Source: Candidatus Syntropharchaeum caldarium
Lineage (GTDB): Archaea; Halobacteriota; Syntropharchaeia; Syntropharchaeales; Syntropharchaeaceae
NCBI GenBank assembly: GCA_001766815.1
Contig: LYOS01000002.1
Coordinates: forward strand, 378,802-410,801
DNA: 32,000 nt
Direction: 5' to 3'
The notes under the pieces were generated by a model, which worked only from the letters and a program-made list of their open reading frames with translations, was not told the origin of the DNA and ran no database searches. Position 1 is the first letter of the stretch; each line of letters opens with the position of its first letter. A program made the position numbers and the translations under genes. Below, piece after piece: positions 3,417-32,000 of the stretch.

Positions 3417-3432
3417 ATCGCCCAACAACCGC

Positions 3433-3804: not shown

Positions 3805-3805
3805 A

Positions 3806-4210: not shown

Positions 4211-4364
4211 GTTTGGAGAATATGAAAGTTAAAAGAGGCGGGTGTTCAATATCGCCTAACAGAACATAAAAGGTATACGCTGTGTCTGTGGGCTAACCTA
4301 ATTTCTGCCTCACAAAAACTGCTTAATATCATGGTCTTTCCAGAGATAAATCATAAAGAAAGTT

Positions 4365-11008: not shown

Positions 11009-11447
11009 CAATAATCCCCTCCTCCGTGACAATCGCAGAGACAAGCTCAAGCGGTGTTGCATCAAATGCAAAGTTCAAAACATCAACTCCATCAGGGGCG
11101 TTCTTGATTCCCTTGAAGTATCGAAGCTCATCCCCATCTCGCTCTTCAACCTTTATATCTGCTTCTGTGTGATTAAGATCGAACGTCGAGGTTGGTGCTG
11201 CAACATAGAAGGGTATCCCGTGATGCTTTGCATTTACAGCATGTGAGTATGTCCCGATCTTGTTAAATACCGCATCTTTGACGATTCTGTCCGCACCAAC
11301 AATCACCTTGTCGATTAGCCCACGTTGCATGAGATATGCGGCAGATGAGTCGGTTATGAGCGTGACAGGTATTTTATCTTCCATAAGTTCCCATGCTGTG
11401 ATCCTTGAGCCCTGATTGAGCGGACGGGTCTCACATGCAATCCACAT
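10989..11447 (-). pseudogene. displaced 3' fragment of mtnA (C-terminal ~145 codons only)
   Basis: ...ACETRPLNQGSRITAWELMEDKIPVTL...VSAIVTEEG is near-identical to residues ~180-320 of the full-length gene at 16036-17016. There is no N-terminal half. The first codons (MWI) come from junction sequence. The C-terminus (IIDARTLW*) overlaps the ruvC start. Confidence 0.8.
11010..11438. repeat. direct repeat copy A (mtnA 3' end), right-hand partner at 16051-16479
   Basis: In my hand alignment the offset is a constant 5,041 bp at both ends. I found no indels and about 13 substitutions in 429 nt. Confidence 0.85.
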
Positions 11448-11798: not shown

Positions 11799-12620
11799 TT
11801 AGTCAAACCCACTATAACTGTAGCTTATCACTAAATTACCGCCCACTTCTCTTAAATAAAGTGTATCACCATCATTGTTCCATATTGCGTTACATGTATG
11901 ACCGCTGCTATTCCAGTATAGTGCTCTTTTTGTATCCATTCCAGAACCTGTGTACAGCGTAACCGTGGCACCACCTGCCAGTTCAAAATCTGGAAACGTG
12001 TAGATATGATTCGCCTCATCTTTAACACTCCAGCCGGTCATATCGATCGATTCGGTGCAGGTATTCTTGAAGGTGACATACTCATCGTTGAGGTTATAGC
12101 AATCATTGCCCTCTGCATTCCAGTTAAAATAAAGGATACCGATGCATTTAGATAAACCTTCTGATTGTTGCCATATTCCTCTTTTTGCGTTTTTTGCTTC
12201 TTCTTCGGCTTTTTCAAAGTCATCTGAATATCTCGTGTTTGGAGGTATGATATAGACGTTAGCGTATCCTTCTCTAACCAGTTCTAAGTTTACAAATCTA
12301 TCATCAATGTAAATATACCTTAACAGTCTTCCATATTTGTCCTTATCCTCAACATCCTTTTCCAACATTACTGTTTTTCCTTCAATTAATTTCTTTAGCA
12401 TATTTGTCGCTTCTTCGTAGTATGGTTGTCCCATCTCTGGCGTATTAATTCCGAGCAATCTGACCCTTTCGCCGTTCTGTAATTCTACAGTATCACCGTC
12501 TATTACACTGGTTACAACAGCGGTTGAGATTGGTCGTTCCGTTTCAAGGCATCCCGCAAAAATTAGAGCCAACGTGATTACAATTGCAGCTAATAAACGT
12601 GCTATGGTTTTCTTCTTCAT
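11799..12620 (-). CDS. secreted lipoprotein: staphylococcal-nuclease (SNase) domain fused to a lamin-tail (LTD) domain
   Basis: A signal peptide with a lipobox-like LIFAGC leads the protein. The SNase motifs are VIDGDTVEL...VRLLGINTPE...KYGRLLRYIY...RGIW, with the Ca-ligand Asp40 equivalent being Asn. The C-terminal LTD pattern is NAEGNDCYNLNDEYVTFKN...MTGWSVKD...IWNNDGDTLYL. Confidence 0.8.
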   Translation of the reverse strand: MKKKTIARLLAAIVITLALIFAGCLETERPISTAVVTSVIDGDTVELQNGERVRLLGINTPEMGQPYYEEATNMLKKLIEGKTVMLEKDVEDKDKYGRLLRYIYIDDRFVNLELVREGYANVYIIPPNTRYSDDFEKAEEEAKNAKRGIWQQSEGLSKCIGILYFNWNAEGNDCYNLNDEYVTFKNTCTESIDMTGWSVKDEANHIYTFPDFELAGGATVTLYTGSGMDTKRALYWNSSGHTCNAIWNNDGDTLYLREVGGNLVISYSYSGFD

Positions 12621-13163: not shown

Positions 13164-14576
13164 TTACTTTCTCCTTCTAACAAGATACACAACCACTAAC
13201 AACCCTGCAATTGCAAATATCGCTGTGAATCCTGGAACTCCAAAAATACTTTCAGCTATCCAGATCGTGACTACTATGATCTCCTTTACTGGAACATCCC
13301 CCGGTGCAGCAATTTTTGGTGTAAGTTCTCCGCCTTCACCTACGGTATAGGCCTGCGTACCCTTGTTGTATGTCAGATTTGCTTCTATCCCAATATCTCT
13401 GGGTTCGGTCAGCGTGATTGTGTAGTTACAGGTATGTTCCTCGCCTGGTTGTAATTCTTCTCCCGACCAGTAAATTCTGTTAAAGTCAGGGTTGATTTTA
13501 CAGCCTGAAATCGCCTCAACATGCAGATCTACTGGGTGATCGATCTTTAAGTTGATATCGGTTGCTTTAACCTCACCAATGTTCTGGATCGTCAATGAGA
13601 TCAGTGCTGTACCCGTTCCATACTTTTCAATCTTGTATCCCAGATTTAGCTGTGCCTCTTTTACGATTTGTGTTGCTGGTGTTGATGTTATTGTCGGCGT
13701 TACAGTAGAGATTGTTGTTGGTATCACTGTTGGAGTACCACCTGTCTCTGTAGCGGTTACCGTCGGGCCTGTGCCTCCACCACCGCTGCCACCGCCGCTG
13801 GATTCAGTAGCGGTAGGTGAAGCTGTTTTTGTCTCAGCTGGCGTGGGTGTAGTAACAGTCATCGGATCAAGCGGATACGCATCTTGGCCATCCCATACAC
13901 CGTCACCATCGGTGTCAGGATCACATGGATCAGTTATCCAGCCATCTGCGCCTTCAACAGTTTCTTCAAAGTCATTAAGACCGTCTCCATCAGTGTCAAC
14001 CTTGTCTGGATCTGTGCATCCAAGCTGCTCCTGTGTGTCCGGGATACCATCTCCGTCTGAGTCTGTGGGACCACTCCCGCCCCCTCCTCCTCCACCGGTA
14101 CCACCACTGGATTCGGTAGCAATTGGTGTCACCGTGGGTGTCTCAGTCTCGGTTGGTGTGTGGGTTGCCTCTGGCTCACCTGTTGCACCAAGGTCAAGCA
14201 TTCGTGGCTCTGCCATGCTCTGCCACCCGGTGGTCTCATTTGCACGAACACCGTTCACGTAGAAGATGATCGTCTTACCATCATCCACTGCGCTGCCCGC
14301 TACTTCAAGATAGTTGAAATCATGACCGTACTTTCCTGCTGACTCAACCATGACACTTCCCCGAAGCTCACCATCGATGTATGCATTTATTACTGTCCCA
14401 ACTGGGGCTGGTTCACCATTCAATGTCACATTACCATAGAACTTGTTTGGAGGAAGTTGTGCATCTCCCATCACTGTCGTCATCGATACCGCCGTAATTA
14501 CGGCCCCGATCAAAAGCACAAAAAATATCAGATTCATTCCTTTCTTCAACAAATTCCTGATCGCCATTTCCTCCAC
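13164..14576 (-). CDS. PGF-CTERM-anchored surface protein
   Basis: Domain order: signal/TM; a ~90-aa beta-sandwich ([19 protein letters not shown]...FYVNGVRA); Thr/Pro and Gly-rich linkers; thrombospondin-type-3-like Ca loops ([27 protein letters not shown]); a CARDB-like module; and the C-terminal [24 protein letters not shown]. The ORF-track start is GTG, and the ATG 9 nt downstream (MAIRNLL) is an alternative. Confidence 0.8.
13167..13244 (-). other. PGF-CTERM archaeosortase (ArtA-type) sorting signal
   Basis: A PGF tripeptide (13227-13235) is followed by a hydrophobic helix and an RRRK tail at the extreme C-terminus. A Thr-rich linker precedes it. Confidence 0.75.
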
Positions 14577-15441: not shown

Positions 15442-15975
15442 CTATGCTCCTAACAGTGAATTACAAGCTTCAATTTGTTTTTCTGAGCTATTAATTGCAT
15501 CGATAACTAAAGATCTCTCTTCAAAAGTTGGATAAAGCTCTAATAACATCTTTAATTTCTCTAATGATTGTGAGTAAAAATGTTTAGCGTTATTAATGAA
15601 ATAAGCAGCTTCTCCAGAGTTAAAGGCAGTATAAAATGCAATATCCCCGTCCACCTCGTCAATTCTCGCATCTACAAATAATACCCAATCCTCTTCTCCA
15701 GCGCTAATAAAAGCCTCCTTAGATTTTTGTAAAAGCCCTCTAACATCATGCAGCTGGTATAACACTTGATTATAATTAAAATCATCACCTTGTATAGTAT
15801 GCAGCATTGCAGTATTCACTTCATTCCAACAGAACATCGCATCGTTATAATATTCTATCCCTTTACTTTTATCCCCTATGCATCCCGAAAATATAACGAC
15901 CAATGCAATCACTGCTATCGCTATTAAGCCTGCTATATCTTTCTTCAACAAATTCCTCATCATAACTTCCTCCAC
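15442..15975 (-). CDS. putative secreted lipoprotein, helical
   Basis: A signal peptide ends in VIFSGCIG (lipobox-like Cys). The rest is predicted soluble. The N-terminus and leader are homologous to those of the gene at 13164-14576. Confidence 0.55.
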   Translation of the reverse strand: MEEVMMRNLLKKDIAGLIAIAVIALVVIFSGCIGDKSKGIEYYNDAMFCWNEVNTAMLHTIQGDDFNYNQVLYQLHDVRGLLQKSKEAFISAGEEDWVLFVDARIDEVDGDIAFYTAFNSGEAAYFINNAKHFYSQSLEKLKMLLELYPTFEERSLVIDAINSSEKQIEACNSLLGA

Positions 15976-20230: not shown

Positions 20231-22636
20231 TTACCCACAGCACCCAATCTCATACGTCGCAGGGTTGTTGACGTGGTTCAGTAATAGAATCACATCACCC
20301 ATATCTACAGAGCCATCGCAGTTTACATCCCCTCCATCGAGTGGTTCATCCGATAAATCCCCAACATATTCAAGTAAGAGGATGACATCATCAATATCGA
20401 CCGTACCATCACCGTCGAGGTCGCCATCTTCTGAGCCGATATAGCTCTCAAACCTCTCCACCAGCGGATAATAATCCTTATCACCATCTATGCTATAAGC
20501 AGTATCGCCAATTCCATCCCCATCAGCATCGCTTCCTTTGTAATCGCTCCAGTAGTTTCCAAGATAGTTTGTGTAGGTGTCGCCATTGTAGGTATAGGTT
20601 ATTTTCTCGGTGGAGTTCCAGATGTTTGTTGAAGAGAGAGAATAAACGTTATCTGTGTTATTTATGAAGTTGTTGAGGTAGATGTTATTGTTGCTGGAAT
20701 ATTCGAGGTAGATTCCATCATCGTTGTTCGAGGCATTGTTGTTATAGATAGTATTGTTGCTGCTGGAATACCACAGCTCGATGCCATCGCCGTTGTTCGA
20801 GACATTGTTGTTATAGATAGTATTGTTGCTGGAACCCTTCAGCTTGATGCCCCAACCGTTGTTCGAGTTTGCGGTGTTGTTATAGATTTTGTTGCTGCTG
20901 GAATACCACAGCTCGATGCCATCGCCGTTGTTCGAGGCGTTGTTGTTATAGATAGTATTGTTGCTGCTGGAATCCCATAGACAGATGCCATTATGGTTGT
21001 TCGAGTTTGCGGTGTTGTTAATTAGAGTGTTATTGCTGGAAGAGTAGAGATAGATTCCATTCCAGTTGTTCGAGCTTACAATATTGTTTGCTATGATGTT
21101 GTTGTTGCTGGAATAACCCAGACGGATGCCACAACCGTTGTTCGATGCGTTGTTGTTATAGATAGTATTGTTGTCGCTGGAATCCCATAGACAGATGCCA
21201 TTATGGTTGTTCGAGTTTGCGGTGTTGTTATAGATTTTGTTATTGCTGGAATACCCCAGCTCGATGCCATCGCCGTTGTTCGAGTTTGCGGTGTTGTTTT
21301 TAATAATATTATGCGATGAGAATCCTAATTGAACTCCTACAGCTGTATTGCTAATATTTAGATTCTCTATTCTCATTCCCGTACAGTTGGCAAGAATGAC
21401 CTGCCCTGCATCCTCGGGAACCTTACCTCCAATCTTGTTCTTAAAATAATAAAGAGGTTTACCATTGACAATGTTGCCTTCTATTGTATGAGTGTTCCAG
21501 TGTTGTAGTTGAGAACCCCCAATGACAATGCCATCACTATTCATTACGTTGTTGGTGATGCTGTTGTTGCTGGAAAACCACAGAGCGATGCTATCTCCGT
21601 TGTTCGAGTTTACGATGTTGTTATAGATATTGTTGCTGCTCGAAGAATACAGGAAGATTCCATCCCAGTTGTTCGAGCTTACGGTGTTGTTATAGATAGT
21701 ATTATTGCTGGAATCCCCCAGATAGATGCCCCACTCGTTGTTCGAGTTTACGATGTTGTTATAGATGGTGTTGTTACTGGAAGAAGACAGATGGATGCCA
21801 TCTTCGTTGTAGTTGTTCGAGGCGGTGTTGTTATAGATAGTATTATTGCTGGAATCCCCCAGATAGATGCCCCACTCGTTGTTCGAGTTTACGATGTTGT
21901 TATAGATGGTGTTGTTGCTGGAATACCACAGCTCGATGCCATCTTCGTTGTTCGAGGCGTTGTTGTTATAGATAGTATTGTTGTTGCTGGAAGAGTAGAG
22001 GTAGATTCCATCGTGGTTGTTCGAGCTTACGATATTGTTTGCAAGGGTGTTGTTGCTGGAAGAGTGGAGGTAGATTCCATAGTAGTTGTTCGAGCTTACG
22101 GTGTTGTTTGCTATGATGTTGTTGTTGCTGGAATAACCCAGACAGATGCCATAATCGTTGTTCGAGACGGTGTTGTTATAGATTTTATTGTTGTTAGAAT
22201 CCCACAGAAAGGTGCCATACCGGTTGTTCGTGATGCTGTTACAGGCGATTTTATTAGCGTTTGAAACTACATTTATCCCTGCATTTGGCCAACTACCTAA
22301 GTTTCTTACAGTGAATCCTTCAATCGTAATTCCATCTGCATTTAATGTAATTACATTGCCACTGCCTCCACCATCCACGATACAATTAGCAGAGCCGTTT
22401 TCTGATTTGATGGTCAATTGTTTATTCACTATCACGTTCTCGTAATATGTTCCATCCCTTACAACAATCGTATCCCCAGCGGATGCATTATCCACAGCCC
22501 ATTGAATTTTTGCGTAGTTGTCGGGCACGTAGATCGTTGTTGCAGACGCCAGCGCCACACTCACACCCACGAAAGCACAAAGTAGCACAAATGCCACACA
22601 CATTCCAAACGCGAGATATTTTATATCTTTATTCAT
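20231..22636 (-). CDS. secreted Asn-rich right-handed parallel beta-helix (NosD/CASH-like) protein with C-terminal dockerin
   Basis: After a signal peptide (MNKDIKYLAFGMCVAFVLLCAFVGVSVALA) come more than 25 rungs of the ~22-24-aa coil N-N-x-I-x-x-N-x-x-x-G-I-x-L-x-x-S-S-N-N. A cap module follows ([26 protein letters not shown]...[15 protein letters not shown]), then the dockerin. Confidence 0.85.
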   Translation of the reverse strand: MNKDIKYLAFGMCVAFVLLCAFVGVSVALASATTIYVPDNYAKIQWAVDNASAGDTIVVRDGTYYENVIVNKQLTIKSENGSANCIVDGGGSGNVITLNADGITIEGFTVRNLGSWPNAGINVVSNANKIACNSITNNRYGTFLWDSNNNKIYNNTVSNNDYGICLGYSSNNNIIANNTVSSNNYYGIYLHSSSNNTLANNIVSSNNHDGIYLYSSSNNNTIYNNNASNNEDGIELWYSSNNTIYNNIVNSNNEWGIYLGDSSNNTIYNNTASNNYNEDGIHLSSSSNNTIYNNIVNSNNEWGIYLGDSSNNTIYNNTVSSNNWDGIFLYSSSSNNIYNNIVNSNNGDSIALWFSSNNSITNNVMNSDGIVIGGSQLQHWNTHTIEGNIVNGKPLYYFKNKIGGKVPEDAGQVILANCTGMRIENLNISNTAVGVQLGFSSHNIIKNNTANSNNGDGIELGYSSNNKIYNNTANSNNHNGICLWDSSDNNTIYNNNASNNGCGIRLGYSSNNNIIANNIVSSNNWNGIYLYSSSNNTLINNTANSNNHNGICLWDSSSNNTIYNNNASNNGDGIELWYSSSNKIYNNTANSNNGWGIKLKGSSNNTIYNNNVSNNGDGIELWYSSSNNTIYNNNASNNDDGIYLEYSSNNNIYLNNFINNTDNVYSLSSTNIWNSTEKITYTYNGDTYTNYLGNYWSDYKGSDADGDGIGDTAYSIDGDKDYYPLVERFESYIGSEDGDLDGDGTVDIDDVILLLEYVGDLSDEPLDGGDVNCDGSVDMGDVILLLNHVNNPATYEIGCCG
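20234..20425 (-). other. dockerin module (two F-hand repeats) of the 801-aa protein
   Basis: The sequence is GDLDGDGTVDIDDVILLLEYV ... [32 protein letters not shown]. Confidence 0.7.
20925..21230. repeat. intragenic tandem duplication, period 210 nt (three beta-helix rungs)
   Basis: 20925-21020 and 21135-21230 are about 96 nt each with about 3 mismatches. They encode [29 protein letters not shown]. Confidence 0.8.
21683..21916. repeat. intragenic tandem duplication, period 141 nt (two beta-helix rungs)
   Basis: 21683-21775 and 21824-21916 are 93 nt each and identical by my reading. They encode [31 protein letters not shown]. Confidence 0.8.
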
Positions 22637-22755
22637 TCCAATCGCCTCTTTTCTACATCTATTTTGAGTATATCGATCTGATCAAAAGTAAAACTGAAAT
22701 CACCTCATACATACACTCCTCCAAATTCTGTGCATGCCCCAAATATAAACTTAAC
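22637..22755 (-). promoter_or_regulatory. conserved promoter/5' leader module of the 801-aa gene (twin of 30629-30750)
   Basis: The coding strand reads cgTTAAGTTTATATTTggggcatgcacagaatttGGAGGAGtgtATG..., with the TATA box at 22741-22749. A 17-codon uORF, MYEVISVLLLIRSIYSK*, occupies 22659-22712. A purine-rich aaaagagg lies before the main ATG. Confidence 0.5.
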
Positions 22756-22780
22756 GAGTGGGGTAGAATGCCAACCATCA

Positions 22781-25700
22781 TCACCTCTTATCACAGCAAT
22801 CAAGCTTATACTTCACCGGATCACCCATATAATTCAACAACAATATCACATCACCCACGTTAACAGAGCCATCGCAGTTTACATCTTCATCTATCTGGTA
22901 TTCTGCATGGTTTCCGACGTGGTCAAGGAGCAGGTAGAGATCGGTCATATCAATCGTGCCATCTGAGTTGAGATCGCCACATCTCACCAATACATTCTTT
23001 GTTGTTGAGCTGGTCAGGCCATCGTTATCTGTTACGGTTAGCGTTACCTCATAACTACCTGCTTCTGAGTAGGAATGGGTTATAACAGGATCTGGCGTGG
23101 TTGTGGTGTTACCATCGCCGAAGTTCCAGGTGTAATTCATGATGTTCCCGTCCGGATCGTAAGAAGCAGAGGCGTTGAAGGTTATAGTATCATCTACCGT
23201 TGGAGATTGAGGAGTGAAGAAGAAGTCTGCTGTGGGAGCAGAAAGGTTGCTGTCAATATTCCCATCTCCATCGTAATCCACTTCGACATAATCGGTAGTT
23301 AAATCTGCATAGACCGTAGAATTGTTTGTTAATATCAAGGGTATGGTTTTGTTCTCTATTGCACCATCCTTAACTCCATTAATTCGAAGCTGGACATTAC
23401 CCTCTCCACTAATGTTGATACTACTTCCGTTAACATCAGCCACTATTTTATTATCCGACACTACTGTCAGACTCCTGTTAAAGTTAACAGAGGTTATAAC
23501 TAGGGGGTCAAGTGTACCTGGTATCTCCTGCGTTTCTACAGTTGTCTCCAAACTGATAGGGTGGGCTACGATATAAACAGTATCTGCTACGTTCCCATTC
23601 ACTTTTCTGTATTCCATAAACCCATAGGAATAATCGATATCAGTTACATACTGCGTTGAATCGAAGTATCCTGTGCATTCATCACTCTTACAATCCGATG
23701 TTGAAATTTCAATTGGATTGGAGCAAGCAAGAACTGTGTAGTTCGTGATTAATCCTTCATGTTCTGAGGGTTCACCTGTGGGCGATAACCATGGCCAAGT
23801 GAAGGAACCCCACCAAGTGAACGTCTCAGGTACTGAGAATTCATTTAGGGTGTCATATTTACCATAAGGGGGATCTATATCTCCAGTTTCTGAATTGTAA
23901 TATAAATGACTAAATTCCAATTGAACTCTATTTTTATCTCCAGACAGTGAATTGCTATTGGGGTCATATATGTAAAATTCAATATGGTCACCCTCTTCAT
24001 AGTATCCAAAAGCCAATACAGAATGACCTGGACTCGAGCTATTTGTATCGTTTATTGATATGAGAACAGGATGACCATCTTTTATTCTATTCTTAGCAGT
24101 ATCCACATTGAAAGAGCGTTTTTTTCCTGCAATTTGATGCATTATAATTGAAAAGATTACGTTATCCATTGGGGTTATCTCTTTACCTCTGAATGTATCT
24201 CTCTTAATTTGGCCTGTTTCGGGGTCCCAGTAACCACAATTTGAATTTTCGCATGCAGGGACATATTCCGGAACATAATCCAAGAGATGTGTAAAGTCAA
24301 GCGGGTTTGGTGCTATATATTCAGTATCAGATGAGTATGGATACAAGCCTTTATTCCCATAATATAGTATCGATGTTGAGGTCATTCCAAAGCAAATCCC
24401 CTTGCTCTCTCTGACACGTCGATTCTCAAAGATGTAAGAATCATTGAATGGATTGAAGTTTGTAAGTCCTTCATCATCATCCCAATTTTTAAGAGCGGGG
24501 CTAATTGTGAGTTGATTTTCTAAGAATGGAGCATTGAACCAGAATTCGAAGGTGTGATGACTTTCAGAATACAACTTATATCTGGTATTCTTATTGCAAG
24601 GAGTAAAGAATTTGTAGTACCATTTGTCTTCAACAACACCTGCATCCGAGATTTCCAAATCTGAAGGAGATACAGTCCAGTAATGCAAGTCAACTAGACA
24701 GACATCCATCTCATCTGTAAGTTCTACAATCTCTTTTGTTGATTTTGATAGGTATATGTTCTTAGTTTCTTCATTTCCACCATTTATTACTTTAACTTGA
24801 TAATCACCCCACTCAAGATTATCGAAACATGTACAACCACTTACATTAGTGAATTTTTCGTATAATCTGACCATTCTGGAATCATAAAGTTCTGTTTTAA
24901 CCGATACAACTGGCAAATCATCAGTATCATCCTTTTTGACTACATCTATACAAAGGTTGTATCTAAACATTTCTATCCAACCATAGTTGTCCGTGCAGAT
25001 TTCTCCTCCACCAACAATGTATGCCTTAGCAAGTCCTGTATATGTTTCCTGCTTAGATGGTGTGAAAATAAAAGTGAATGTGCTGTTACCACCCCTCTGA
25101 ACAGTTTCAATGCCACTCTCTTCTTGTAAAACTACTTGCCCGCTCTCATTCTTTATGATGACAGATGCTTTAACATCCACCTCATCAGAAGTAAAGTTAG
25201 AGGGGACTTTGATGGTAACATTAACATCCACTGGATTGTTTACATCTACTTCCTTAGCATTGAATTCCTCAACGTAGGGGTTACACCTGTAGAAATCCTT
25301 CTCAGTTGTATCTCCAGCATTAACAGTTATTCCTGTTATCTGTCCCCAGAATTCCTCCTCTCCATATTCAAATTCGGGATCGTGCCATACGTTGATATAG
25401 TATTCACCAGCTGGAACTAAAAAGGTTACTTTCCCATCATCTACCACCTCTTCTGCAAATGCAGAGGTTTCACCTGCTTTTATCAGTTCAACGATTGTAG
25501 TTCCTTTAACTTCATAAGCTGGATTACCGTTGACATTATAAGTGTTAATAATCAGACTCCCGGTGTCATCTGATGGAAAATAATTCTCAAACCTTTCCAT
25601 CAGCGGGTAGTTGTCCTCATCTGAATCTATGCTGTAAGGCGTGTCTCCGATTCCATAATTGTTTGCGTCCGTTCCAGTATAATCATCCCAGTAGTTGCCG

Positions 25701-28700
25701 AGGTAGTTTGTGTAGGTGTTGCCATTGTAGGTGTAGGTTATTTTTGAGGTGGAGTTCCAGATGTTTGTTGAATCGGAGGAATAAACGTTTCGGGTATTGT
25801 TTATAAAATTATTTAAATATATTTTGTTTTCATTGGAATAAAAAAGTCGGATTCCATAGTAATTACTGCAAATAATATTGTTGATTATCGTGTTATTATT
25901 GGAAGAGTAAAAACTGAGGTAACTCATGCTATTGTAGCTTATATTGTTACCTTTAATGGTGTTATTATTGGAGAACAAAAACCCAAATGCAACTCCGTTA
26001 TTAACGATGATATTACTCACGATATTATTTTTGTCAGAATATTCTATATAAATACCTGCCCAACAATTGTCAGTGACGTTATTACCGATAATATTATTAT
26101 TACTGGAATTAATAAGCAAAACTCCGTAATCGTAATTATTGTAGACAGTATTGTTGATGATTGTATTGTTGTTTGAGTTCAAAAAAAATATGCCAAAGTC
26201 ATTAGATAATAATCTTGACTTTTCACCTATTTTGTTATCCTGTATTTTTGAGTTAGTCGAATTAAAAAAGAGAATCCCATGAGTAGTATTCGTAAAAACT
26301 AGGTTCTTAACAGTAACATTGTTACAATTTATACAATATACCGCACCTGCATTCGACGATGAATCCAAGAGTGTGTTGGAGGAATTTACAAGATAGTAAA
26401 TCGGTTTTTCTTCGATTGTATTAGAGCTATCTATTTTATTTATAAAGTGTGATTCACTCCTACCCGTTACACCAAAGTTCCATTGATTATTAGAGATTAT
26501 ATTATATCTCAAAGTATTATTTCCAGAATAACGAAGTTTAATGCCATCCCAATTGTTAATTGCAGTGTTATTGACTAGCGTATTGTTATTTGAGTAATCA
26601 AGTATAATGCCATCGCTATTATTAACAGCGATGTTGTGTGAAATAATATTGTTATCAGAGTATACGTGAATTCCATAATAATTATTACTAATATTGTTAT
26701 TTTTAATAATATTGTAGTTTGCAGTTACATTGATTCCAGCACTTGGATAATCACCGGAGTTTATTATATTAAAGCCCTCAAGTGTAATTCCATTAGCAAT
26801 TAATGTAAAAACATCACCATTATGTAATCCATCAACAATACAATTTTCAGAGCCATTCTCAGACCGAATTGTCAAATGCGGCTTATTCACCTCTATATTC
26901 TCGATATAAACACCATCATAAACAACTATCTCGCATCCCTCAATCGCATCATCCACACCTTCCTGTATCGTATCCCATTTGTGATTCGCAGGGTCATCTT
27001 CAAAATCATCATCCACATAAACTATCTTTGGTGATATGCTTATGCTCTTTGAATCTTCATCGGTAGTGCCATCATCATCTGTTACCGTTAATGTTACGTC
27101 ATAAATTCCTGCGGAAGAATATGAATGTGTTACTATCATTCCTGTTGCAGTATTTCCGTCTCCAAAATTCCACTCATATTTTTCAATTGTTCCGTCCGGG
27201 TCTGTTGAATTTGAGGCATCAAAAGTTATTTCTTGATCTACAAATGGATGAGAAGGTGAATAAGTGAATGAAGCGGTTGGTGGTTGGTTCTCTACCGGCT
27301 TAAAGTATTTCTCCCAGGGTTGCATCAGCGGATAATTGTCCTTATCTGAATCTATGCTGTAAGGCGTGTCGCCAATTCCGTCTCCATCTGCATCACCTCC
27401 AGAATAATCATCCCAATAGTTGCCGAGGTAGTTTGTGTAAGTGCTGCCGTTGTAGGTGTAGGTTATTTTTGAGGTGGAGTTCCAGATGTTTGTTGAAGAA
27501 CAAGAATCAACGTTATGAGTGTTGTTCATGAAATTGTTAAGGTATATGGTGTTGTTGCTGGAATCATATAGATGAATGCCACTATAGTTGTTCGAGTTTG
27601 CGGTGTTATTATAGATTTTGTTGTCGCTGGAAGAACCCAGACCGATGCCAGCCCCGTTGTGCGAGGCATTGTTGTTATAGATGGTGTTGTTGCTGGAATA
27701 CCACAGATCGATGCCATCACCGTTGTTCAAATAGATGTTGTTTTTAATAATATTATGCGAGGAGAATCCTAATTCAACTCCTACAATGGTATTGCTAATA
27801 CTCAGATTCTCTATTCTCATTCCCGTACAGTTGGCAAGAATGGCCTGTCCTGCATCATCGGGAACCTTACCTCCAATCTGGTTCTTAAAATAGTAAAGAG
27901 GTTTATCATTGACGGTGTTGCCCTCTATTGTATGAGTGTTCCAGTGTTGTGGTTGATCGCCCCAAATGACAACACCATCACTATTCATCACGTTATTGGT
28001 GATGCTGTTGTTGGTGGAAGAAGCCAGATAGATACCGCCCCTGTTGTTAGAGTTTACGTTGTTGCTATAGATGGTGTTGTTGGTGGAAGAAGCCAGAACG
28101 ATGCCGGCCCAGTTGTTCGAGCTTACGTTGTTGTTCTCAATGAGGTTATTGCTGGAAGAGCCGAGGAGGATTCCAATCCAGTTGTTCGAGGCGTTCACGT
28201 TCTCTATTCTACAGTTTTTCGAGCTGTGGAGGTAAACTCCAGCTATATCATAATAATAGCCAGTTGCCCCGGTCACGGTGAAGCCGCTTATGTTAACGTT
28301 ATCTGCGGTCACATCGAAGACATGGTCATCTGGATTTGCAGCATGAACAATCGTATCCTCGGGATTTCCAGAGGTTGACCTTATTGTTAAAGATTTTGTA
28401 ACATCCACATTCTCGGTGTAAGTTCCGGGGTCAACGGTGATCGTATGCCCATCCAAAGTATCAGGGTCGTCTATTGCAGCCTGGATCGTTGTGAAGTCTT
28501 CGCCGGTGTTGAGGTTGTGGACTTTTAGTTCTCTTTCTTCAGCAGGTTTTATTGTAAGGTCTTCTGTATCGGCAGTTGACCACACACCATCATCATCCTT
28601 CACCTTAAATGAGATGATATGAGTTCCAACTGAAAGATCAGATGCAGGCATGTCAAAGTCTTCTTCGTTACTCAGCACGCCGCCTTTATCTGATGTCCAT

Positions 28701-30628
28701 TCGTATGCGACCACCGAACTATCGGAATCGTTTCCATGTCCCCTGAAATGAACCATATCTTTTCCTTGGATTGCAGGGTCGGGAGTTATTGAATCAATAA
28801 ATGCTGTTGGTGGTTGGTTTACAGGGCCTGTTCCAGTCGTTTTGACGATATAGATGCCTTGATTTGTGGTGAAAAATAAGTCCTTTATCCCATCATTATC
28901 AAAGTCATGCCCCCATCCAAGCCAACTGAAGTGAGTGTTTTCTGAAGAGACAATTTTGGCATCCCAAAGCTCATTTCCATTATTCCCATCCATCACGATT
29001 TTTTTTAATGCAGCGTATCTTACCCAAGTTTCAGAACTTTCATTCCACCAAGAACACTCATAGCCTATATCTAAAAATGGATCCGGCGTACCATCCCCGT
29101 TCAAATCAGAATATCCACATACAAATGCCCGAGTATAGTTCCAGCCATTCTCTGGTGGAATAACATCAACATGATGAGTAAAACTATTTTCCCATATTTC
29201 ATCTCCATTGGCACCGCTCAGTGCTGTAACGTCATATTTATAGTCATAAGAATCCAATTTTGTAGAGTTAACAGTAAAAACCTCATCTTTACCATCACTA
29301 TTTATATCGTTGCAATAACCAACATACCCTACATTTACATTTTTTTCCCATATTATTGATCCATCTGCTCCACTAAGAACTTGAAGTTTGTTTGAGCTCA
29401 CAGCAAAGTCGTTAATCCCATCGTTATCAATATCAAGCCAGTAGCAGATATCTATACTGCCATTATAGTATCTGCTCCATACCGCCGACCCATCCTTACC
29501 ATTCAGAACATGAATGCTACTGCTATTATTCTTCTCGTCATCACCTTCAACAACTACATCTATTATCCCGTCTTTGGTATAGTCATAATAGGAGTAAGAA
29601 AAGAAATCATACCCAAATTTTTCATTCCATATTTCGGCCCCGTCTTTCCCGCTCAACGCAGTTACATTTCCTGCATTGGTATCATATGAATAAGTCGATG
29701 CAATATAATCTCCAATTCCATCTCCATTTAAATCTGGAAGCTCACGTGGTATACACCTACGAAAGTCGCCCTCAAAAATTTTGCTCTGCCATATTTCAGA
29801 TCCGTCTTTTCCACTAATAGCCTCTATTAACGAAATGGAATGATCCATACCCACCCAGCAATTCCAACGGAAAGTTATATCGTTTATCAAATCCTCATTC
29901 AAGTCATTTTCATGAGCGGTGCCCCATCCTCCCCATCTCTCTGTGCGAGCAATTGTTTTACTCCAAAGGGTGTTACCATCAACCCCGCTGATCAAATCCA
30001 TAGCAAGATAGGTCTCGTTGTTGCTTTTGTTATAATTTCTGGAATAAATTATAACATCATCTATCCCATCTTCATTTTCATCTCCTATAGGTCCTGCAAT
30101 TTCTATTTCTCTACCATAGCTCTTGTTCCAGAGAGTAAAACCACTTTTTCCACTCAGCAAGAGTAATTTCCCAGTCGTATTCCAGCTATCACTAACAATG
30201 ATGTCACTTACTCCATCGCCGTTAACATCGCCTATCCACGCCAAATCAAGATGTGAATATTCTTTTTTGTTTTCATATTTCCATAGGAGTTCTGCGTTTC
30301 CATGAAGGGAAAAGGTGTAGTTTGATTTGTGAGTTCCTGCTGCTCTGATCATCTGTTTGTTGAGTTCATGTTTCGGAATCGAACGTTTATAAAACGGAAT
30401 ATGTTTCTCATGTGCTAAATATTCCTCATCTTCATCTATCATACGACCAAAGAGCATGCGATGGGGAATGAGCGTATCGCCGTAAAAAGGCATCGCTGCC
30501 CCATCCCCCGCCTGAATCGATTCCCCTTCTTCCACATGCGATCTTGCAGACGCTCCTCCTGCAAAAGCACAAAGTAGCATGAAAACTACGCAGACCACAA
30601 ACATGAGATGTTTTATATTCCCCTTCAT
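22781..30628 (-). CDS. giant (2,615 aa) secreted mosaic surface protein
   Basis: It is a single uninterrupted 7.8-kb ORF. The order is signal peptide, ~8-blade propeller, PKD-like, beta-helix block 1 plus cap, PKD, beta-helix block 2 plus cap, beta-sandwich modules, Cys/His/Asp papain-like candidate domain, unknown beta-rich region, PKD, dockerin. Domain motifs are listed in the sub-features. Confidence 0.85.
22784..22981 (-). other. dockerin module of the giant protein
   Basis: The sequence is [66 protein letters not shown]. Confidence 0.7.
22990..23238 (-). other. PKD domain 3
   Basis: The sequence is [47 protein letters not shown]...[24 protein letters not shown]. Confidence 0.8.
23849..24661 (-). 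other. candidate papain-fold (clan-CA-like) cysteine peptidase domain embedded in the giant protein
   Basis: [13 protein letters not shown] carries Cys2079 (codon 24392-24394). [13 protein letters not shown] carries His2202 (codon 24023-24025). FYIYDPNSN carries Asp2222 (codon 23963-23965) and Asn2224. The order and spacing (C...~120 aa...H...20 aa...D/N) fit a Cys-His-Asp/Asn triad. This rests on motif-level inference only. Confidence 0.4.
25575..27029 (-). other. parallel beta-helix block 2 plus cap module
   Basis: It begins [26 protein letters not shown]...[15 protein letters not shown]. The rungs follow the pattern NN.I..N...GI.L..S.NN. The cap is [29 protein letters not shown]...[11 protein letters not shown]. 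Confidence 0.75.
27030..27289 (-). other. PKD domain 2
   Basis: The sequence is [50 protein letters not shown]...[23 protein letters not shown]. Confidence 0.85.
27300..28530 (-). other. parallel beta-helix block 1 plus cap module (paralogous to the 801-aa protein)
   Basis: It begins [20 protein letters not shown]...[14 protein letters not shown], followed by rungs and the cap. 27741-28020 is about 90% identical at nucleotide level to 21296-21575. Confidence 0.8.
28548..28819 (-). other. PKD-like / Ig-like domain 1
   Basis: The sequence is [49 protein letters not shown]...[17 protein letters not shown]. Confidence 0.65.
28838..30316 (-). other. ~8-bladed beta-propeller with FG-GAP-like Ca loops
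   Basis: Eight repeats pair D-x-N-x-D-G-x-x-D ([63 protein letters not shown] ...) with x-S-G-x-D-G-x-x-x-W ([80 protein letters not shown]). Confidence 0.7.
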
Positions 30629-30750
30629 TCTTCTGATCGCCTCTTTCCTGTATCTATTTTGAGTATATCGATCCGATCAAAAGTAAAACCGAAACCACCT
30701 CATACATACACTCCTCCAATTTCTGTGCATGCCCAAAATATAAACTTAAC
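30629..30750 (-). promoter_or_regulatory. conserved promoter/5' leader module of the giant gene (twin of 22637-22755)
   Basis: The TATA box TTTATATTT lies at 30736-30744 (coding strand). GGAGGAG plus a 17-codon u[20 protein letters not shown], occupies 30654-30707. Then ggaaagagg precedes the main ATG at 30628. There are about 10 substitutions and one 1-nt indel relative to the twin. Confidence 0.5.
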
Positions 30751-30774
30751 GAAAAGGAAGGATGTCGATCATCT

Positions 30775-31350
30775 TCACGTCTCCTCACAGCAGGTAAGCC
30801 TGTATATCTCAGGATTGTTCACATGATTGAGCAATAAGATCACATCACCCATGTTAACAGAGCCATCGCAGTTTACATCGGCTATTGCTTCATAATCACC
30901 GTGGTTTCCAACGTGCTTCAGAAGCAGGTAGAGATCGGTCATATTTATCTCGCCATCTGAGTTAAGGTCGCCACATACTCCTTCAACTGAAAGATCAAGC
31001 TTTCTTGGTGGTGCCATTGAATACCAGACCGCGGTTTCATTTGCACGAACGCCGTTCACGTAGAACTCGATCATCTTACCATCATCTGCCGCACTGCCAT
31101 TTACCACAAGATAATTGAGATTATCACCATACTTTCCAGGTGTTGTGACCTCGACACTCCCACGAAGCTCACCATCGATGTGTGCATTTATTACTATCCC
31201 AACTGGGGCTGGTTCTCCATTCAGGCTCACATTACCGTAGAACTTGTTGGGAGGAGGTGGCGCATCATCTGCTATTCCAATCATCACCCCACTCAAGATA
31301 ATGGTGAGCAGGAGCGATAGCAGCACCGCTCCTCTCTTAAATCTCTTCAC
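30775..31350 (-). CDS. small secreted protein: ~90-aa beta-sandwich plus dockerin
   Basis: It has a signal/TM segment. The domain [33 protein letters not shown]...[10 protein letters not shown] is about 70% identical to the N-domain of the PGF-CTERM protein at 13164-14576. A dockerin follows. The start lies 6 nt after the upstream stop, which suggests co-transcription. Confidence 0.75.
   Translation of the reverse strand: MKRFKRGAVLLSLLLTIILSGVMIGIADDAPPPPNKFYGNVSLNGEPAPVGIVINAHIDGELRGSVEVTTPGKYGDNLNYLVVNGSAADDGKMIEFYVNGVRANETAVWYSMAPPRKLDLSVEGVCGDLNSDGEINMTDLYLLLKHVGNHGDYEAIADVNCDGSVNMGDVILLLNHVNNPEIYRLTCCEET
30778..30975 (-). other. dockerin module of the 191-aa protein
   Basis: The sequence is [66 protein letters not shown]. 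Confidence 0.7.
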
Positions 31351-31356
31351 ACATCA

Positions 31357-32000
31357 TCACCGACGCTGGATGTAGATGTACGCCGCGATGATCCCGAGAA
31401 GTACCAGCAGGATTATACCGATCACAACCCAGCTTATTGGTATAGGTTGGCCAGGGGTTGATGTGGGTGTTGCAGTTGGAGTCTGGGTTGGTGTGGGCGT
31501 GGGTGTTGCAGTTGTGATCGTCGCTGGCGAAGGGGCTGGTGTCGCGGTTATTGTGGGCGTTGGGGTTTCCGGCAGTACACCAGGATAGGACGATGGATCA
31601 TCTGGATCGGTTCCAGCGATCATCTCCTGTATGTCACTGTAGCCATCACCATCTGAGTCCCTCGGAGCGCCTCCTCCCCTGTAGTAATTATCACGCATTC
31701 CCTTTTCACCCTCATCTGCCTCAACAGTTATATCAATCGAACTTGATCCCTGAGTGTACCCTACTTTTGTAACATCCACAGCAATCGCATATGTTGCGTC
31801 CGAACTCACAGATGGTGCGGTGTATATAGCAGTGAATATTCCCCCGGCATCTGTGATTCCACTGTCTGGTGAAAATATCCCATCTGTTGAGCTGAGTATC
31901 ACATTTGCATCAGCGATGGTATTCCCTTCTGATGTGACAGTTACTGTTATCGTGGAACTCTCGCCGGATTTAACACTCATCGGATTCGCAGTGAGTGAGA
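31357..32000 (-). CDS. C-terminally membrane-anchored surface protein, partial (5' end beyond the window)
   Basis: The frame stays open to nt 32000 (..SLTANP precedes the ORF-track Met). The order is a Big_1/invasin-like Ig domain (SGESSTITVTVTSEGNTIADANVILSSTDG...TDAGGIFTAIYTAP), a Ca loop (DSDGDGYSD), a Thr/Pro linker, and a C-terminal helix with a basic tail (ISWVVIGIILLVLLGIIAAYIYIQRR). It is PGF-CTERM-like in layout but lacks the PGF tripeptide. Confidence 0.65.
   Translation of the reverse strand, partial: SLTANPMSVKSGESSTITVTVTSEGNTIADANVILSSTDGIFSPDSGITDAGGIFTAIYTAPSVSSDATYAIAVDVTKVGYTQGSSSIDITVEADEGEKGMRDNYYRGGGAPRDSDGDGYSDIQEMIAGTDPDDPSSYPGVLPETPTPTITATPAPSPATITTATPTPTPTQTPTATPTSTPGQPIPISWVVIGIILLVLLGIIAAYIYIQRR

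What the first reader, a model, noticed from the sequence alone, without database searches (positions are those of the whole stretch)
20231..32000. Cluster of dockerin-tagged secreted proteins: a candidate archaeal cohesin-dockerin surface assembly with its partner out of view
Three consecutive minus-strand genes (20231-22636, 22781-30628, 30775-31350) each start with a signal peptide. Each ends in a ~65-aa module of two Ca-binding F-hand loops plus helices (e.g. [20 protein letters not shown] ... [20 protein letters not shown]). That is the duplicated D-x-N-x-D-G-x-[IV]-[DN]-x-x-D plus helix pattern that defines type-I dockerins. The cargo differs enormously (191, 801 and 2,615 aa) while the tag is conserved, which is how a targeting or assembly module behaves. 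I see no glycoside-hydrolase-like domain, so this is not a cellulosome. The cargo is adhesin-like (beta-helix, PKD, propeller) plus one candidate peptidase. The fourth gene (31357 to the window edge) is membrane-anchored and could belong to the scaffold side. I see no cohesin-sized module in its visible 214 aa. Non-cellulosomal dockerin/cohesin modules are known to exist in archaea, but their biology is largely uncharacterised.
Basis: partly seen in the sequence, partly recalled or inferred. Interest (0 to 1): 0.7.

Follow-up and report, generated by a model that had tools for sequence, protein, structure and literature searches.

The report
Dockerin-tagged surface proteins of Syntrophoarchaeum
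Three secreted proteins of the butane-oxidising archaeon Candidatus Syntrophoarchaeum caldarius end in genuine dockerin tags, and close relatives encode the matching cohesin protein just beyond the window edge, so this is most likely a non-cellulosomal cohesin-dockerin surface display system of a kind already noted in related methane-oxidising archaea.

Summary
ORFs 20231-22636, 22781-30628 and 30775-31350 (all minus strand) encode 801-, 2615- and 191-aa proteins. Each has a signal peptide and a C-terminal module of two Ca-loop/helix repeats. Pfam Dockerin_1 scores are 24.4, 18.7 and 38.9 bits (cutoff 22.9). PDB sequence hits are only dockerins, and the AF2 model superposes on solved dockerins.

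The window comes from Ca. Syntrophoarchaeum caldarius. No cohesin lies inside it. The fourth gene is an intimin-like Ig stalk with a TSP3 repeat and a transmembrane anchor, not a scaffoldin.

Relatives do carry a cohesin next to this cluster:
- A contig 96.8% identical to the window edge has, directly upstream of the fourth gene, the end of a gene whose ortholog starts with a cohesin.
- Syntrophoarchaeum sp. GoM_oil and a Thermoplasmata MAG also carry cohesin genes in the same cluster.

So "partner out of view" is well supported but not seen directly.

New details:
- The dockerins belong to a four-cysteine subfamily that ends in CC.
- One head domain appears in the window on three different anchors (dockerin, TM helix, PGF-CTERM).
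- The giant protein carries a C39-like peptidase.

Cohesin/dockerin abundance in ANME archaea is published, so this is a new member of a known kind. Binding is untested.

The parts
20231..22636 (-). 801-aa secreted protein: signal peptide, long NosD-like right-handed beta-helix, C-terminal dockerin
   Evidence: ORF. Pfam: Beta_helix 374.6 bits, NosD 329.5 bits, Dockerin_1 24.4 bits. Its beta-helix is 61% identical over 292 aa to the giant neighbour.
20234..20431 (-). Dockerin module of the 801-aa protein (aa ~736-801): loops DLDGDGTVDIDD and [12 protein letters not shown], ending ...YEIGCCG
   Evidence: It lacks the Cys before loop 1 that 48 of 51 subfamily members have.
22781..30628 (-). 2615-aa secreted giant protein: signal peptide, beta-propeller, PKD-like module, beta-helix block 1, PKD, beta-helix block 2, beta-sandwich region, C39-like cysteine peptidase, PKD, dockerin
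28829..30331 (-). Beta-propeller region of the giant protein (aa ~100-600, approximate) with FG-GAP-like Ca loops
   Evidence: Pfam Beta-prop_FAM234A_B 48.5 bits and PQQ_2 34.1 bits
23909..24451 (-). Papain-like (C39-like) cysteine peptidase domain of the giant protein (aa ~2060-2240, approximate). Candidate catalytic residues are the Cys in GICFGMT (motif starts at aa 2077) and the His in GHSVLAFGY (motif starts at aa 2201).
   Evidence: Pfam Peptidase_C39_2 29.9 bits against a cutoff of 24, covering the His half of the profile. Motif positions.
22784..22984 (-). Dockerin module of the giant protein (aa ~2549-2615): [14 protein letters not shown] ... [12 protein letters not shown] ... YKLDCCDKR
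   Evidence: Dockerin_1 18.7 bits, below the cutoff. 63% identical to the 191-aa protein's tail. Four-Cys signature.
30775..31350 (-). 191-aa secreted protein: signal peptide, ~90-aa 'X' head domain (transthyretin/CarboxypepD_reg-like beta-sandwich), dockerin
   Evidence: Dockerin_1 38.9 bits. AF2 model pLDDT 80. Foldseek matches the head to PapC C-terminal domain and SusC NTE, and the tail to dockerins 2VN6_B (rmsd 1.6 A), 4FL4 and 4UYP. PDB phmmer finds only dockerins.
30985..31254 (-). 'X' head domain of the 191-aa protein (aa ~33-122). No Pfam family.
   Evidence: 40% identical over 93 aa (E 8e-19) to the N-domain of the full-length fourth-gene homolog P0018. 62% identical over 124 aa (E 3e-46) to the PGF-CTERM protein at 13164-14576. 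No Pfam hit at E<=10.
30778..30978 (-). Dockerin module of the 191-aa protein (aa ~125-191): [14 protein letters not shown] ... [12 protein letters not shown] ... YRLTCCEET
31357..32000 (-). Fourth gene, 3' two-thirds only (SCAL_000964): intimin-like Ig (Big_1/Big_12) domain, TSP3 Ca-binding repeat, Thr/Pro-rich linker, C-terminal TM helix. Full-length homologs (341-345 aa) add a signal peptide and an X head domain. It is not a cohesin carrier.
   Evidence: 100% identical to P0017, Ca. S. caldarius. TSP3_bac 29.1 bits. Homolog Pfam results. AF2 model of P0018 plus Foldseek: intimin D00-D0 6TQD, InvE, SbsC, no cohesin in the top 50. It lies 6 nt from the 191-aa gene, the same spacing as in GoM_oil.
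13164..14576 (-). 470-aa surface protein outside the finding: signal peptide, the same X head domain, weak sub-threshold TSP3-like matches and Thr/Pro-rich linkers, and a PGF-CTERM archaeosortase sorting signal
   Evidence: PGF-CTERM 32.3 bits. X domain 62% identical to the 191-aa dockerin protein.

Best explanation
The three genes encode Sec-secreted extracellular proteins of Ca. Syntrophoarchaeum caldarius. Each carries a C-terminal Ca-binding dockerin that acts as a non-covalent surface-attachment tag.

The most likely receptor is a single-cohesin protein with the layout signal peptide, cohesin, Ig domains, then two 'GWNLISIP...YW' repeats. In the closest relatives its gene lies directly upstream of the fourth gene. 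In the source contig that would be about 0.4 kb beyond nt 32000.

The cohesin protein has no membrane anchor. It presumably holds on to the envelope through its C-terminal double repeat, which is a portable module also found on other cargo.

The docked cargo would be:
- two NosD-like beta-helix proteins, which could be adhesins or matrix-polysaccharide-active proteins;
- within the giant one, a beta-propeller, PKD modules and a C39-like cysteine peptidase;
- a small head domain ('X').

The same X domain is also displayed on a TM-anchored Ig stalk (the fourth gene) and on a PGF-CTERM-anchored protein at 13164-14576.

The likely role is building the extracellular layer or mediating cell-cell adhesion in the consortia this archaeon forms with its sulfate-reducing partner.

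Shown: the dockerin identity and fold, the domain content, and the cohesin genes in syntenic clusters of relatives.

Inferred: the cohesin gene in the source genome, which cohesin binds which dockerin, the anchoring role of the double repeat, and the physiological role.
For: Dockerin identity:
- Pfam hits.
- PDB sequence hits are only dockerins that were solved with cohesins, for example 5LXV_B 7e-6, 2CCL_B 1e-5 and 1OHZ_B.
- The model superposes on 2VN6_B, 4FL4 and 4UYP.
- The loop motif is far above chance.

Cohesin next to the cluster in relatives:
- L013 (Syntrophoarchaeum GoM_oil) has the gene order CC-dockerin protein, 334-aa cohesin protein, CARDB protein, fourth-gene ortholog, 191-aa ortholog.
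- The PDB sequence hits of the 334-aa protein below E = 0.1 are all cohesins, best 3L8Q_A at 1.3e-7. It aligns end to end with the L001 protein (E 3e-9), which scores Pfam Cohesin 51.5 bits.
- In L016, the gene directly upstream of the fourth-gene homolog starts with a cohesin. It scores 30.8 bits with a 5-sequence archaeal cohesin HMM, and 0 of 2000 shuffles reached that. It ends in the double repeat.
- L017 is 96.8% nt identical to the window. It has the same gene end 43 nt upstream of the fourth gene, 73% identical to L016.

The dockerin behaves as an anchor: the X head occurs on a dockerin, a TM stalk and PGF-CTERM within 20 kb.

The double repeat is portable: it ends unrelated cargo in L014.

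Literature: cohesin/dockerin domains are abundant in ANME-1 and ANME-2 and are proposed to act in the extracellular space (PMC9012536, PMC5244752).
Against: - The source contig beyond nt 32000 could not be read, so no cohesin of S. caldarius itself has been seen.
- The L016 cohesin call rests on a home-made HMM. Pfam and PDB sequence searches miss it, and hhalign probability is only 12-18%.
- L017 shows only the last 190 aa of the upstream gene, not its cohesin.
- The GoM_oil 334-aa protein is below the Pfam cutoff (14.7 bits).
- No binding, calcium dependence, localisation or expression data exist.
- Only one cohesin is visible per relative's cluster, yet several dockerin proteins would have to share it, so other cohesins elsewhere in the genome may be the true partners.
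- The anchoring function of the double repeat is pure inference. It has no Pfam, NCBIfam or PDB sequence match.
Confidence: 0.65

Rival explanations
1. Inter-species docking. The archaeal dockerins bind cohesins displayed by the syntrophic sulfate-reducing partner (HotSeep-1, Ca. Desulfofervidus), or the reverse, so the system glues or recognises partner cells rather than assembling a self-complex.
For: HotSeep-1 is the partner of Ca. S. caldarius (PMC10553843). Cohesin/dockerin complexes are reported as conserved in HotSeep-1, are expressed in consortia, and are suggested to serve partnership sensing. The cargo is adhesin-like: beta-helix, PKD and propeller.
Against: Relatives encode a cohesin inside the same gene cluster as the dockerin proteins. 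That is the usual signature of a self-encoded pair. No HotSeep-1 cohesin was examined here. This reading does not exclude self-docking.
Confidence: 0.1
2. Orphan dockerin-like tails. The modules are Ca-binding, Cys-stapled C-terminal stabilising or ligand-binding ends (binding for example an S-layer, glycan or metal) that do not use a cohesin.
For: Many non-cellulosomal genomes carry more dockerins than cohesins (149 versus 80 and 112 versus 77 domains in the first two genome columns of Table 2 of PMC5244752; the excerpt does not show which genomes these are). This subfamily has an unusual four-Cys signature and always sits at the extreme C-terminus, which could reflect another function. No cohesin is in the window.
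Against: Cohesin genes sit beside dockerin genes of this cluster in three separate loci (L013, L016, L001). In L013 and L016 the dockerins are of the same Cys-bearing type as in the window; the L001 dockerin is of a different type without the terminal CC. The fold and the Ca-ligand positions are those of cohesin-binding dockerins.
Confidence: 0.15
3. An exopolysaccharide-processing 'mini-cellulosome'. The NosD-like beta-helix cargo are carbohydrate-active enzymes (lyase, epimerase or hydrolase fold), co-localised by cohesin-dockerin pairing to remodel matrix polysaccharide rather than to act as adhesins.
For: The right-handed beta-helix is the fold of pectate lyases, GH28 enzymes and the AlgG epimerase. 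There are weak AlgG and pectate-lyase-like hits. The same dockerin type is fused to a glucoamylase-family protein in a Methanosarcinales MAG (P0015; L002).
Against: The AlgG hits are far below the cutoff (18-24 bits against 700). No catalytic motif was identified. NosD-like beta-helices are also common in non-enzymatic surface proteins.
Confidence: 0.1

Closest known systems
Dockerin/cohesin-domain proteins of ANME archaea (Chadwick et al. 2022, PMC9012536; Timmers et al. 2017, PMC5244752)
   Same: These are related archaea with a syntrophic, consortium-forming lifestyle. From my own knowledge, Syntrophoarchaeum is a sister lineage of ANME-1. Many of their secreted proteins carry dockerin or cohesin domains on non-cellulolytic cargo. 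A role in the extracellular space or in partner interaction has been proposed and is equally untested.
   Different: Those papers list domain counts and architectures. The sections I read do not describe Syntrophoarchaeum proteins, this conserved gene core (cohesin plus double repeat, X-Ig-TM stalk, X-dockerin), the four-Cys/terminal-CC dockerin signature, or the double-repeat module. The multi-cohesin scaffoldin-like proteins reported for ANME were not seen in the loci I examined.
Archaeoglobus fulgidus cohesin-dockerin pair (Bayer 1999 and Haimovitz 2008, as cited in PMC9012536)
   Same: An archaeal, non-cellulosomal pair with a duplicated F-hand dockerin. Archaeal versions have been shown experimentally to bind specifically, according to PMC9012536.
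   Different: The lineage and cargo differ. From my own knowledge the A. fulgidus modules lack the four-Cys/CC signature; I did not check this here.
Bacterial cellulosome type I dockerin-cohesin (e.g. Clostridium thermocellum Xyn10B dockerin with CipA cohesin, PDB 1OHZ/2CCL; C. cellulolyticum 2VN6)
   Same: The same two-repeat Ca-binding fold, with direct sequence matches (E about 1e-5) and structural superposition (rmsd 1.6 A over 55 columns). The tag is C-terminal on varied cargo.
   Different: No glycoside hydrolase or CBM cargo, and no multi-cohesin scaffoldin or SLH anchor. The relatives' cohesin matches A. cellulolyticus ScaB (type II) cohesins best, so the type label is ambiguous. There are extra conserved cysteines.
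Archaeal PGF-CTERM/archaeosortase and C-terminal TM anchoring of surface proteins
   Same: These serve the same purpose of attaching secreted proteins to the envelope. In this window the same head domain is found on PGF-CTERM, on a TM stalk and on a dockerin.
   Different: Those anchors are covalent-lipid or integral-membrane anchors. A dockerin is a reversible protein-protein tag that needs a cohesin receptor.

Membership tests
Dockerin (Pfam PF00404, type-I-like) | Two tandem ~22-residue segments, each a 12-residue Ca-binding loop with Asp/Asn at positions 1, 3, 5, 9 and 12, followed by an alpha-helix (F-hand) | tested here: met
   All three tails have both loops and helices. Asp at loop positions 1 and 12 is 51/51 in both repeats, and the other ligand positions are mostly Asp/Asn, across 51 subfamily members. 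The model has helices at 137-146 and 167-178.
Dockerin (Pfam PF00404, type-I-like) | Significant match to the family profile (gathering score 22.9 bits) | tested here: met
   38.9 bits (191 aa) and 24.4 bits (801 aa) pass. The 2615-aa tail scores 18.7 bits, below the cutoff, but is 63% identical to the 191-aa protein's tail.
Dockerin (Pfam PF00404, type-I-like) | Dockerin three-helix fold | tested here: met
   The AF2 model of the 191-aa protein matches 2VN6_B (TM 0.73 on target, rmsd 1.6 A, 34% identity), 4FL4 and 4UYP_B. pLDDT in the tail is only 64-83.
Dockerin (Pfam PF00404, type-I-like) | Ca2+-dependent binding to a cohesin | not testable with these tools
   No multimer prediction or experiment was available.
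Cohesin-dockerin system | A cohesin module encoded by the same genome | not testable with these tools
   The source genome is absent from the collections. No cohesin is in the 32-kb window.
Cohesin-dockerin system | Cohesin genes associated with the dockerin genes in related genomes | tested here: met
   L013: 334-aa cohesin protein (PDB cohesins 1.3e-7). L001: Pfam Cohesin 51.5 bits. L016: cohesin HMM 30.8 bits, 0 of 2000 shuffles. L017 (96.8% nt identical to the window) has the orthologous gene end.
Scaffoldin / cohesin carrier (claim for the fourth gene) | Contains one or more cohesin modules | tested here: not met
   No Cohesin hit in the visible part or in full-length homologs. The model matches intimin/invasin Ig domains, with no cohesin in the top 50.
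Cellulosome | Dockerin-borne glycoside hydrolases or CBMs and a multi-cohesin scaffoldin | tested here: not met
   No GH or CBM family hit on the four proteins. Only single-cohesin proteins were seen in relatives.
Peptidase C39-like (Pfam PF13529) for aa ~2060-2240 of the giant protein | Profile match above the cutoff, with catalytic Cys and His | tested here: inconclusive
   29.9 bits against a cutoff of 24, but only the His half of the profile aligns. The Cys in GICFGMT (motif starts at aa 2077) and the His in GHSVLAFGY (motif starts at aa 2201) are present by inspection. No PDB sequence match.
PGF-CTERM archaeosortase substrate (protein at 13164-14576) | C-terminal PGF motif, TM helix and basic tail | tested here: met
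   PF18204 32.3 bits (cutoff 18.8) and TIGR04126 28.9 bits (cutoff 24.5).

The most novel reading that the evidence does not exclude
The conserved three-gene core (cohesin plus 'GWNL' double repeat; X-Ig-TM stalk; X-dockerin) may build a self-assembling, non-covalent surface polymer. If the double repeat binds the X head, the 191-aa X-dockerin protein would be a bivalent adaptor: its dockerin goes into a cohesin and its X head into the next double repeat. It would link cohesin proteins head to tail. The chain would be rooted on the membrane by the X-Ig-TM and X-PGF-CTERM proteins and decorated or capped by the large beta-helix dockerin proteins.

The four-Cys/terminal-CC dockerin would be a new metal- or disulfide-stapled variant, suited to hot, sulfidic sediment. 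It may also be able to engage cohesins of the bacterial partner.
Probability: 0.1. Interest if true: 0.7.

Novelty: new member of a known kind. Interest (0 to 1): 0.4.

Why it matters
Alkane- and methane-oxidising archaea live in tight consortia with sulfate reducers, and how the cells build their shared matrix and recognise partners is an open question. Cohesin/dockerin domains have been flagged in these lineages only as domain counts.

This locus offers a compact, testable set:
- three dockerins;
- a predicted single-cohesin receptor next door;
- a head domain shown on three different anchors.

That set would let someone determine experimentally what an archaeal, non-cellulosomal cohesin-dockerin pair actually assembles. 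The four-Cys, CC-terminated dockerin subfamily may also interest protein engineers as a possibly stapled dockerin variant. It accounts for 42 of the top 144 new 50%-identity representatives.

Tried and rejected
1. Finding the source contig beyond nt 32000. Exact look-ups of four window proteins and of P0017 all failed. The GTDB scan returned relatives only.
2. Searching the 5.8-billion-protein database with two ANME-type cohesins, to look for Syntrophoarchaeum cohesins. Only 4 close hits came back, which was uninformative.
3. A metagenome scan with the GoM_oil cohesin protein. Only the C-terminal double repeat matched. This showed the repeat is portable but gave no new cohesins.
4. Pfam and PDB sequence searches for the L016 N-terminal module found nothing, and hhalign was weak. 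The cohesin call there rests on my own HMM with a shuffle control.
5. Testing whether the X head or the fourth gene's Ig domain is a cryptic cohesin. Rejected: the folds are transthyretin-like and intimin-like.
6. NCBIfam has no specific model for the tail, the X head, the cohesin proteins or the double repeat.
7. A literature search for Cys-stapled archaeal dockerins found nothing relevant. Peer et al. 2009 is not held.
8. I could not obtain model coordinates, so the Cys-Cys distances in the dockerin model were not measured.

Full report
**Observation**

The three minus-strand ORFs exist exactly as described: 20231-22636 (801 aa), 22781-30628 (2615 aa) and 30775-31350 (191 aa). A fourth ORF runs from 31357 to the window edge.

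Each of the three begins with a typical signal peptide, read from the sequence. Each ends with two 12-residue D-x-[ND]-x-[DN]-G-x-[IV]-[DN]-x-x-D loops followed by hydrophobic helices. This loop motif occurs six times in the six-frame translation of the window, only in these tails. It never occurred in 200 triplet-shuffled windows.

**Are the tails dockerins?**

- Pfam Dockerin_1 (cutoff 22.9 bits) scores 38.9 bits for the 191-aa protein and 24.4 bits for the 801-aa protein. It scores 18.7 bits for the 2615-aa protein, which is below the cutoff.
- The sub-threshold tail is 63% identical to the 191-aa protein's tail.
- A phmmer search of the 191-aa protein against all PDB sequences returns essentially only dockerins that were solved with their cohesins, for example 5LXV_B at 7e-6, 2CCL_B at 1e-5, 2Y3N_B and 1OHZ_B.
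- An AlphaFold2 model (mean pLDDT 80) places two helices after the loops. Its tail superposes on C. cellulolyticum dockerin 2VN6_B (rmsd 1.6 A over 55 columns, 34% identity), on 4FL4 and on 4UYP_B.

The dockerin assignment is therefore secure. The 'type I' label is loose.

**Organism and context**

The visible part of the fourth gene is 100% identical to SCAL_000964 of Candidatus Syntrophoarchaeum caldarius, on a 410,801-bp contig. From my own knowledge this is a thermophilic butane-oxidising archaeon.

The rest of the window is archaeal housekeeping: Kae1, HemL, HemC, aIF-2B, CooS-like prismane, chorismate synthase and GatD.

Its syntrophic partner is HotSeep-1 (PMC10553843).

**Cargo**

- The 801-aa protein is almost entirely a NosD-like right-handed beta-helix (Beta_helix 375 bits, NosD 330 bits).
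- The giant protein has a beta-propeller (48.5 bits), two beta-helix blocks, PKD modules (156 bits) and, at about aa 2060-2240, a Peptidase_C39_2 match. That match scores 29.9 bits against a cutoff of 24, and a Cys in GICFGMT and a His in GHSVLAFGY are present.
- The two beta-helix proteins are paralogous, 61% identical over 292 aa.
- No glycoside hydrolase or CBM family hits any of the proteins.

**The fourth gene**

NCBI calls it 207 aa, but the frame is open to the window edge. Homologs are 341-345 aa.

Full-length homologs have this layout: signal peptide, a ~90-aa head domain, an Ig domain (Big_1/Big_12), a TSP3 Ca-binding repeat, a Thr/Pro linker and a C-terminal TM helix.

An AF2 model of the 92%-identical homolog P0018 has an Ig domain with pLDDT above 90. 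It matches intimin D00-D0 (6TQD), invasin InvE and S-layer SbsC Ig domains, with no cohesin among the top 50.

It is therefore a membrane-anchored stalk protein, not a scaffoldin.

**A shared head domain on three anchors**

- The N-terminal cargo of the 191-aa dockerin protein is homologous to the head of the fourth-gene protein: 40% identity over 93 aa, E 8e-19.
- It is 62% identical (E 3e-46) to the head of the 470-aa protein at 13164-14576, which ends in a PGF-CTERM archaeosortase signal.
- The head models as a transthyretin/CarboxypepD_reg-like beta-sandwich and has no Pfam family.

So within 20 kb the same head is displayed on a dockerin, on a TM stalk and on a lipid-anchor signal. This is comparative evidence that the dockerin here works as a surface-attachment device.

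**Where is the cohesin?**

No ORF in the window matches Cohesin, either in Pfam or with a local HMM of archaeal cohesins. The source contig could not be retrieved. Relatives are informative.

1. Syntrophoarchaeum sp. GoM_oil (L013). The gene order is:
   - a CC-type dockerin protein (524 aa);
   - a 334-aa protein;
   - a CARDB/DUF3344 protein;
   - the fourth-gene ortholog;
   - the 191-aa ortholog.

   The 334-aa protein has a signal peptide, a ~130-aa module and two 'GWNLISIP...YWY' repeats. All its PDB sequence hits below E = 0.1 are cohesins of A. cellulolyticus ScaB, best 3L8Q_A at 1.3e-7. Pfam Cohesin is sub-threshold at 14.7 bits. The protein aligns end to end (E 3e-9) with the L001 protein described next.

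2. A Thermoplasmata MAG (L001). It has, in order:
   - a VWA/FG-GAP protein ending in a dockerin;
   - a 352-aa protein with Pfam Cohesin at 51.5 bits plus the same double repeat;
   - an X-head, PKD, TM-anchored protein.

3. L016, where the fourth-gene homolog is 69% identical.
   - The gene directly upstream starts with a module that scores 30.8 bits over nearly the whole 5-sequence cohesin HMM.
   - None of 2000 shuffles reached that score (maximum 8.0), and it exceeds the leave-one-out scores of three of the five members, P0037, L001 and L013.
   - Pfam, PDB and hhalign support for this module is weak or absent.
   - The protein continues with Big_2 and ends in the double repeat.
   - The downstream gene is an X-dockerin.

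4. L017 is 96.8% nt identical to window 31300-32000 over 701 columns. Forty-three nt upstream of the fourth-gene homolog it carries the last 190 aa of a gene that is 73% identical (E 2e-99) to the L016 protein's C-terminus.

From these I infer that the source genome has a cohesin, Ig and double-repeat gene ending about 0.4 kb past the window edge. This is strong but indirect. The cohesin part has not been seen in L017 or in S. caldarius itself.

**The double repeat**

The 'GWNL...YW' pair also terminates two unrelated cargo proteins in L014. It has no Pfam, NCBIfam or PDB sequence match.

The cohesin proteins have no membrane anchor. A reasonable guess is therefore that this portable C-terminal module attaches them to the envelope. 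This is untested.

**A four-Cys dockerin subfamily**

The window tails and their homologs share a Cys two residues before loop 1, a Cys at loop-2 position 4 (DVNCDG), and a terminal Y-x-L-x-C-C followed by 0-6 residues.

A profile search of 1.84 billion representatives found 10,494 proteins at E <= 1e-3. Among the top 144 new representatives, 42 end in CC within 8 residues of the C-terminus, with total protein lengths from about 55 to over 1,000 aa.

In 51 CC-terminated proteins the upstream Cys is present in 48 and the loop-2 Cys in 51. The 801-aa protein is one of the few lacking the first Cys.

Whether these form two disulfides or a metal site is unknown. I found no description of this signature, but the search was limited.

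**Most likely mechanism**

The three proteins are secreted, fold with Ca2+, and dock non-covalently onto a cluster-encoded single-cohesin surface protein. This decorates the envelope with beta-helix, PKD and propeller adhesin-like or polysaccharide-active modules and a cysteine peptidase. I put confidence at about 0.65.

Rivals:
- docking to the partner bacterium's cohesins (0.1; HotSeep-1 conserves cohesin/dockerin complexes);
- orphan Ca-binding tails with no cohesin partner (0.15);
- an exopolysaccharide-processing enzyme complex (0.1).

A speculative chain-assembly model through the X head and the double repeat is given as the novel case.

**Comparison with what is known**

Non-cellulosomal archaeal cohesin-dockerin pairs have been known since the A. 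fulgidus work, as cited in PMC9012536. Their abundance in ANME-1 and ANME-2 is published: 77-80 cohesin and 112-149 dockerin domains per genome in Timmers et al. 2017, and architectures and proposed roles in Chadwick et al. 2022. Their presence in HotSeep-1 is also published.

This locus is therefore a new member of a known kind. Its locally new features are the conserved gene core, the four-Cys signature, the shared head on three anchors, and the double-repeat module. Function remains untested, as it does for all of these systems.

Noticed in passing
window 13164-14576 (-): A 470-aa PGF-CTERM (archaeosortase-sorted) surface protein. Its signal peptide and head domain are 62% identical to the 191-aa dockerin protein. 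The same head is thus anchored three different ways within 20 kb.
   Followed up: yes
window 20234-20431, 22784-22984, 30778-30978 (-); P0060-P0189: A four-Cys dockerin signature: C-G-D before loop 1, DVNCDG in loop 2, and a terminal Y-x-L-x-C-C followed by 0-6 residues. It always sits at the extreme C-terminus. 42 of the top 144 new 50%-identity representatives have it. Whether it is a disulfide or a metal staple is unresolved.
   Followed up: partly
L013:2300-2800, L001:8200-8742, L014:1373-1993 and 3080-3702, L016:1250-1786, L017:2-574: A portable C-terminal double repeat ('GWNLISIP ... G-YWY') with no Pfam, NCBIfam or PDB sequence match. It ends the cohesin proteins and also unrelated CARDB/DUF3344 and Ig cargo. 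It is a candidate envelope-binding module.
   Followed up: partly
window 31357-32000 (-): The public annotation SCAL_000964 is 207 aa, starting at the internal ATG at 31980. The frame is open to the window edge, and homologs, including a 96.8% nt-identical contig, encode 345 aa with a signal peptide and head domain. The gene is probably under-called.
   Followed up: partly
L002:609-1724 and 1982-5380 (Methanosarcinales archaeon ex4572_44): A beta-helix/PKD protein is 77% identical over 146 aa to part of the giant protein, although it comes from a different archaeal order. This suggests a shared or transferred gene pool. Next to it is a glucoamylase-family protein carrying the same dockerin type.
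   Followed up: partly
window 10496-11071 (-) and 10989-11447 (-): A strong RuvC match (168.9 bits), which is unusual for an archaeon. It overlaps a half-length aIF-2B-family ORF (profile positions 136-279 only). This could be an insertion or a gene remnant.
   Followed up: no
window 11799-12620 (-) and 15442-15975 (-): A secreted SNase plus lamin-tail-domain nuclease and a 177-aa unknown protein. Both have lipobox-like signal ends (…FAGC, …FSGC), so they may be lipoproteins near the surface-protein cluster.
   Followed up: no
P0049-P0058: Several ~1,100-aa representatives contain 9-12 dockerin-like stretches each. These are poly-dockerin proteins of unknown origin.
   Followed up: no
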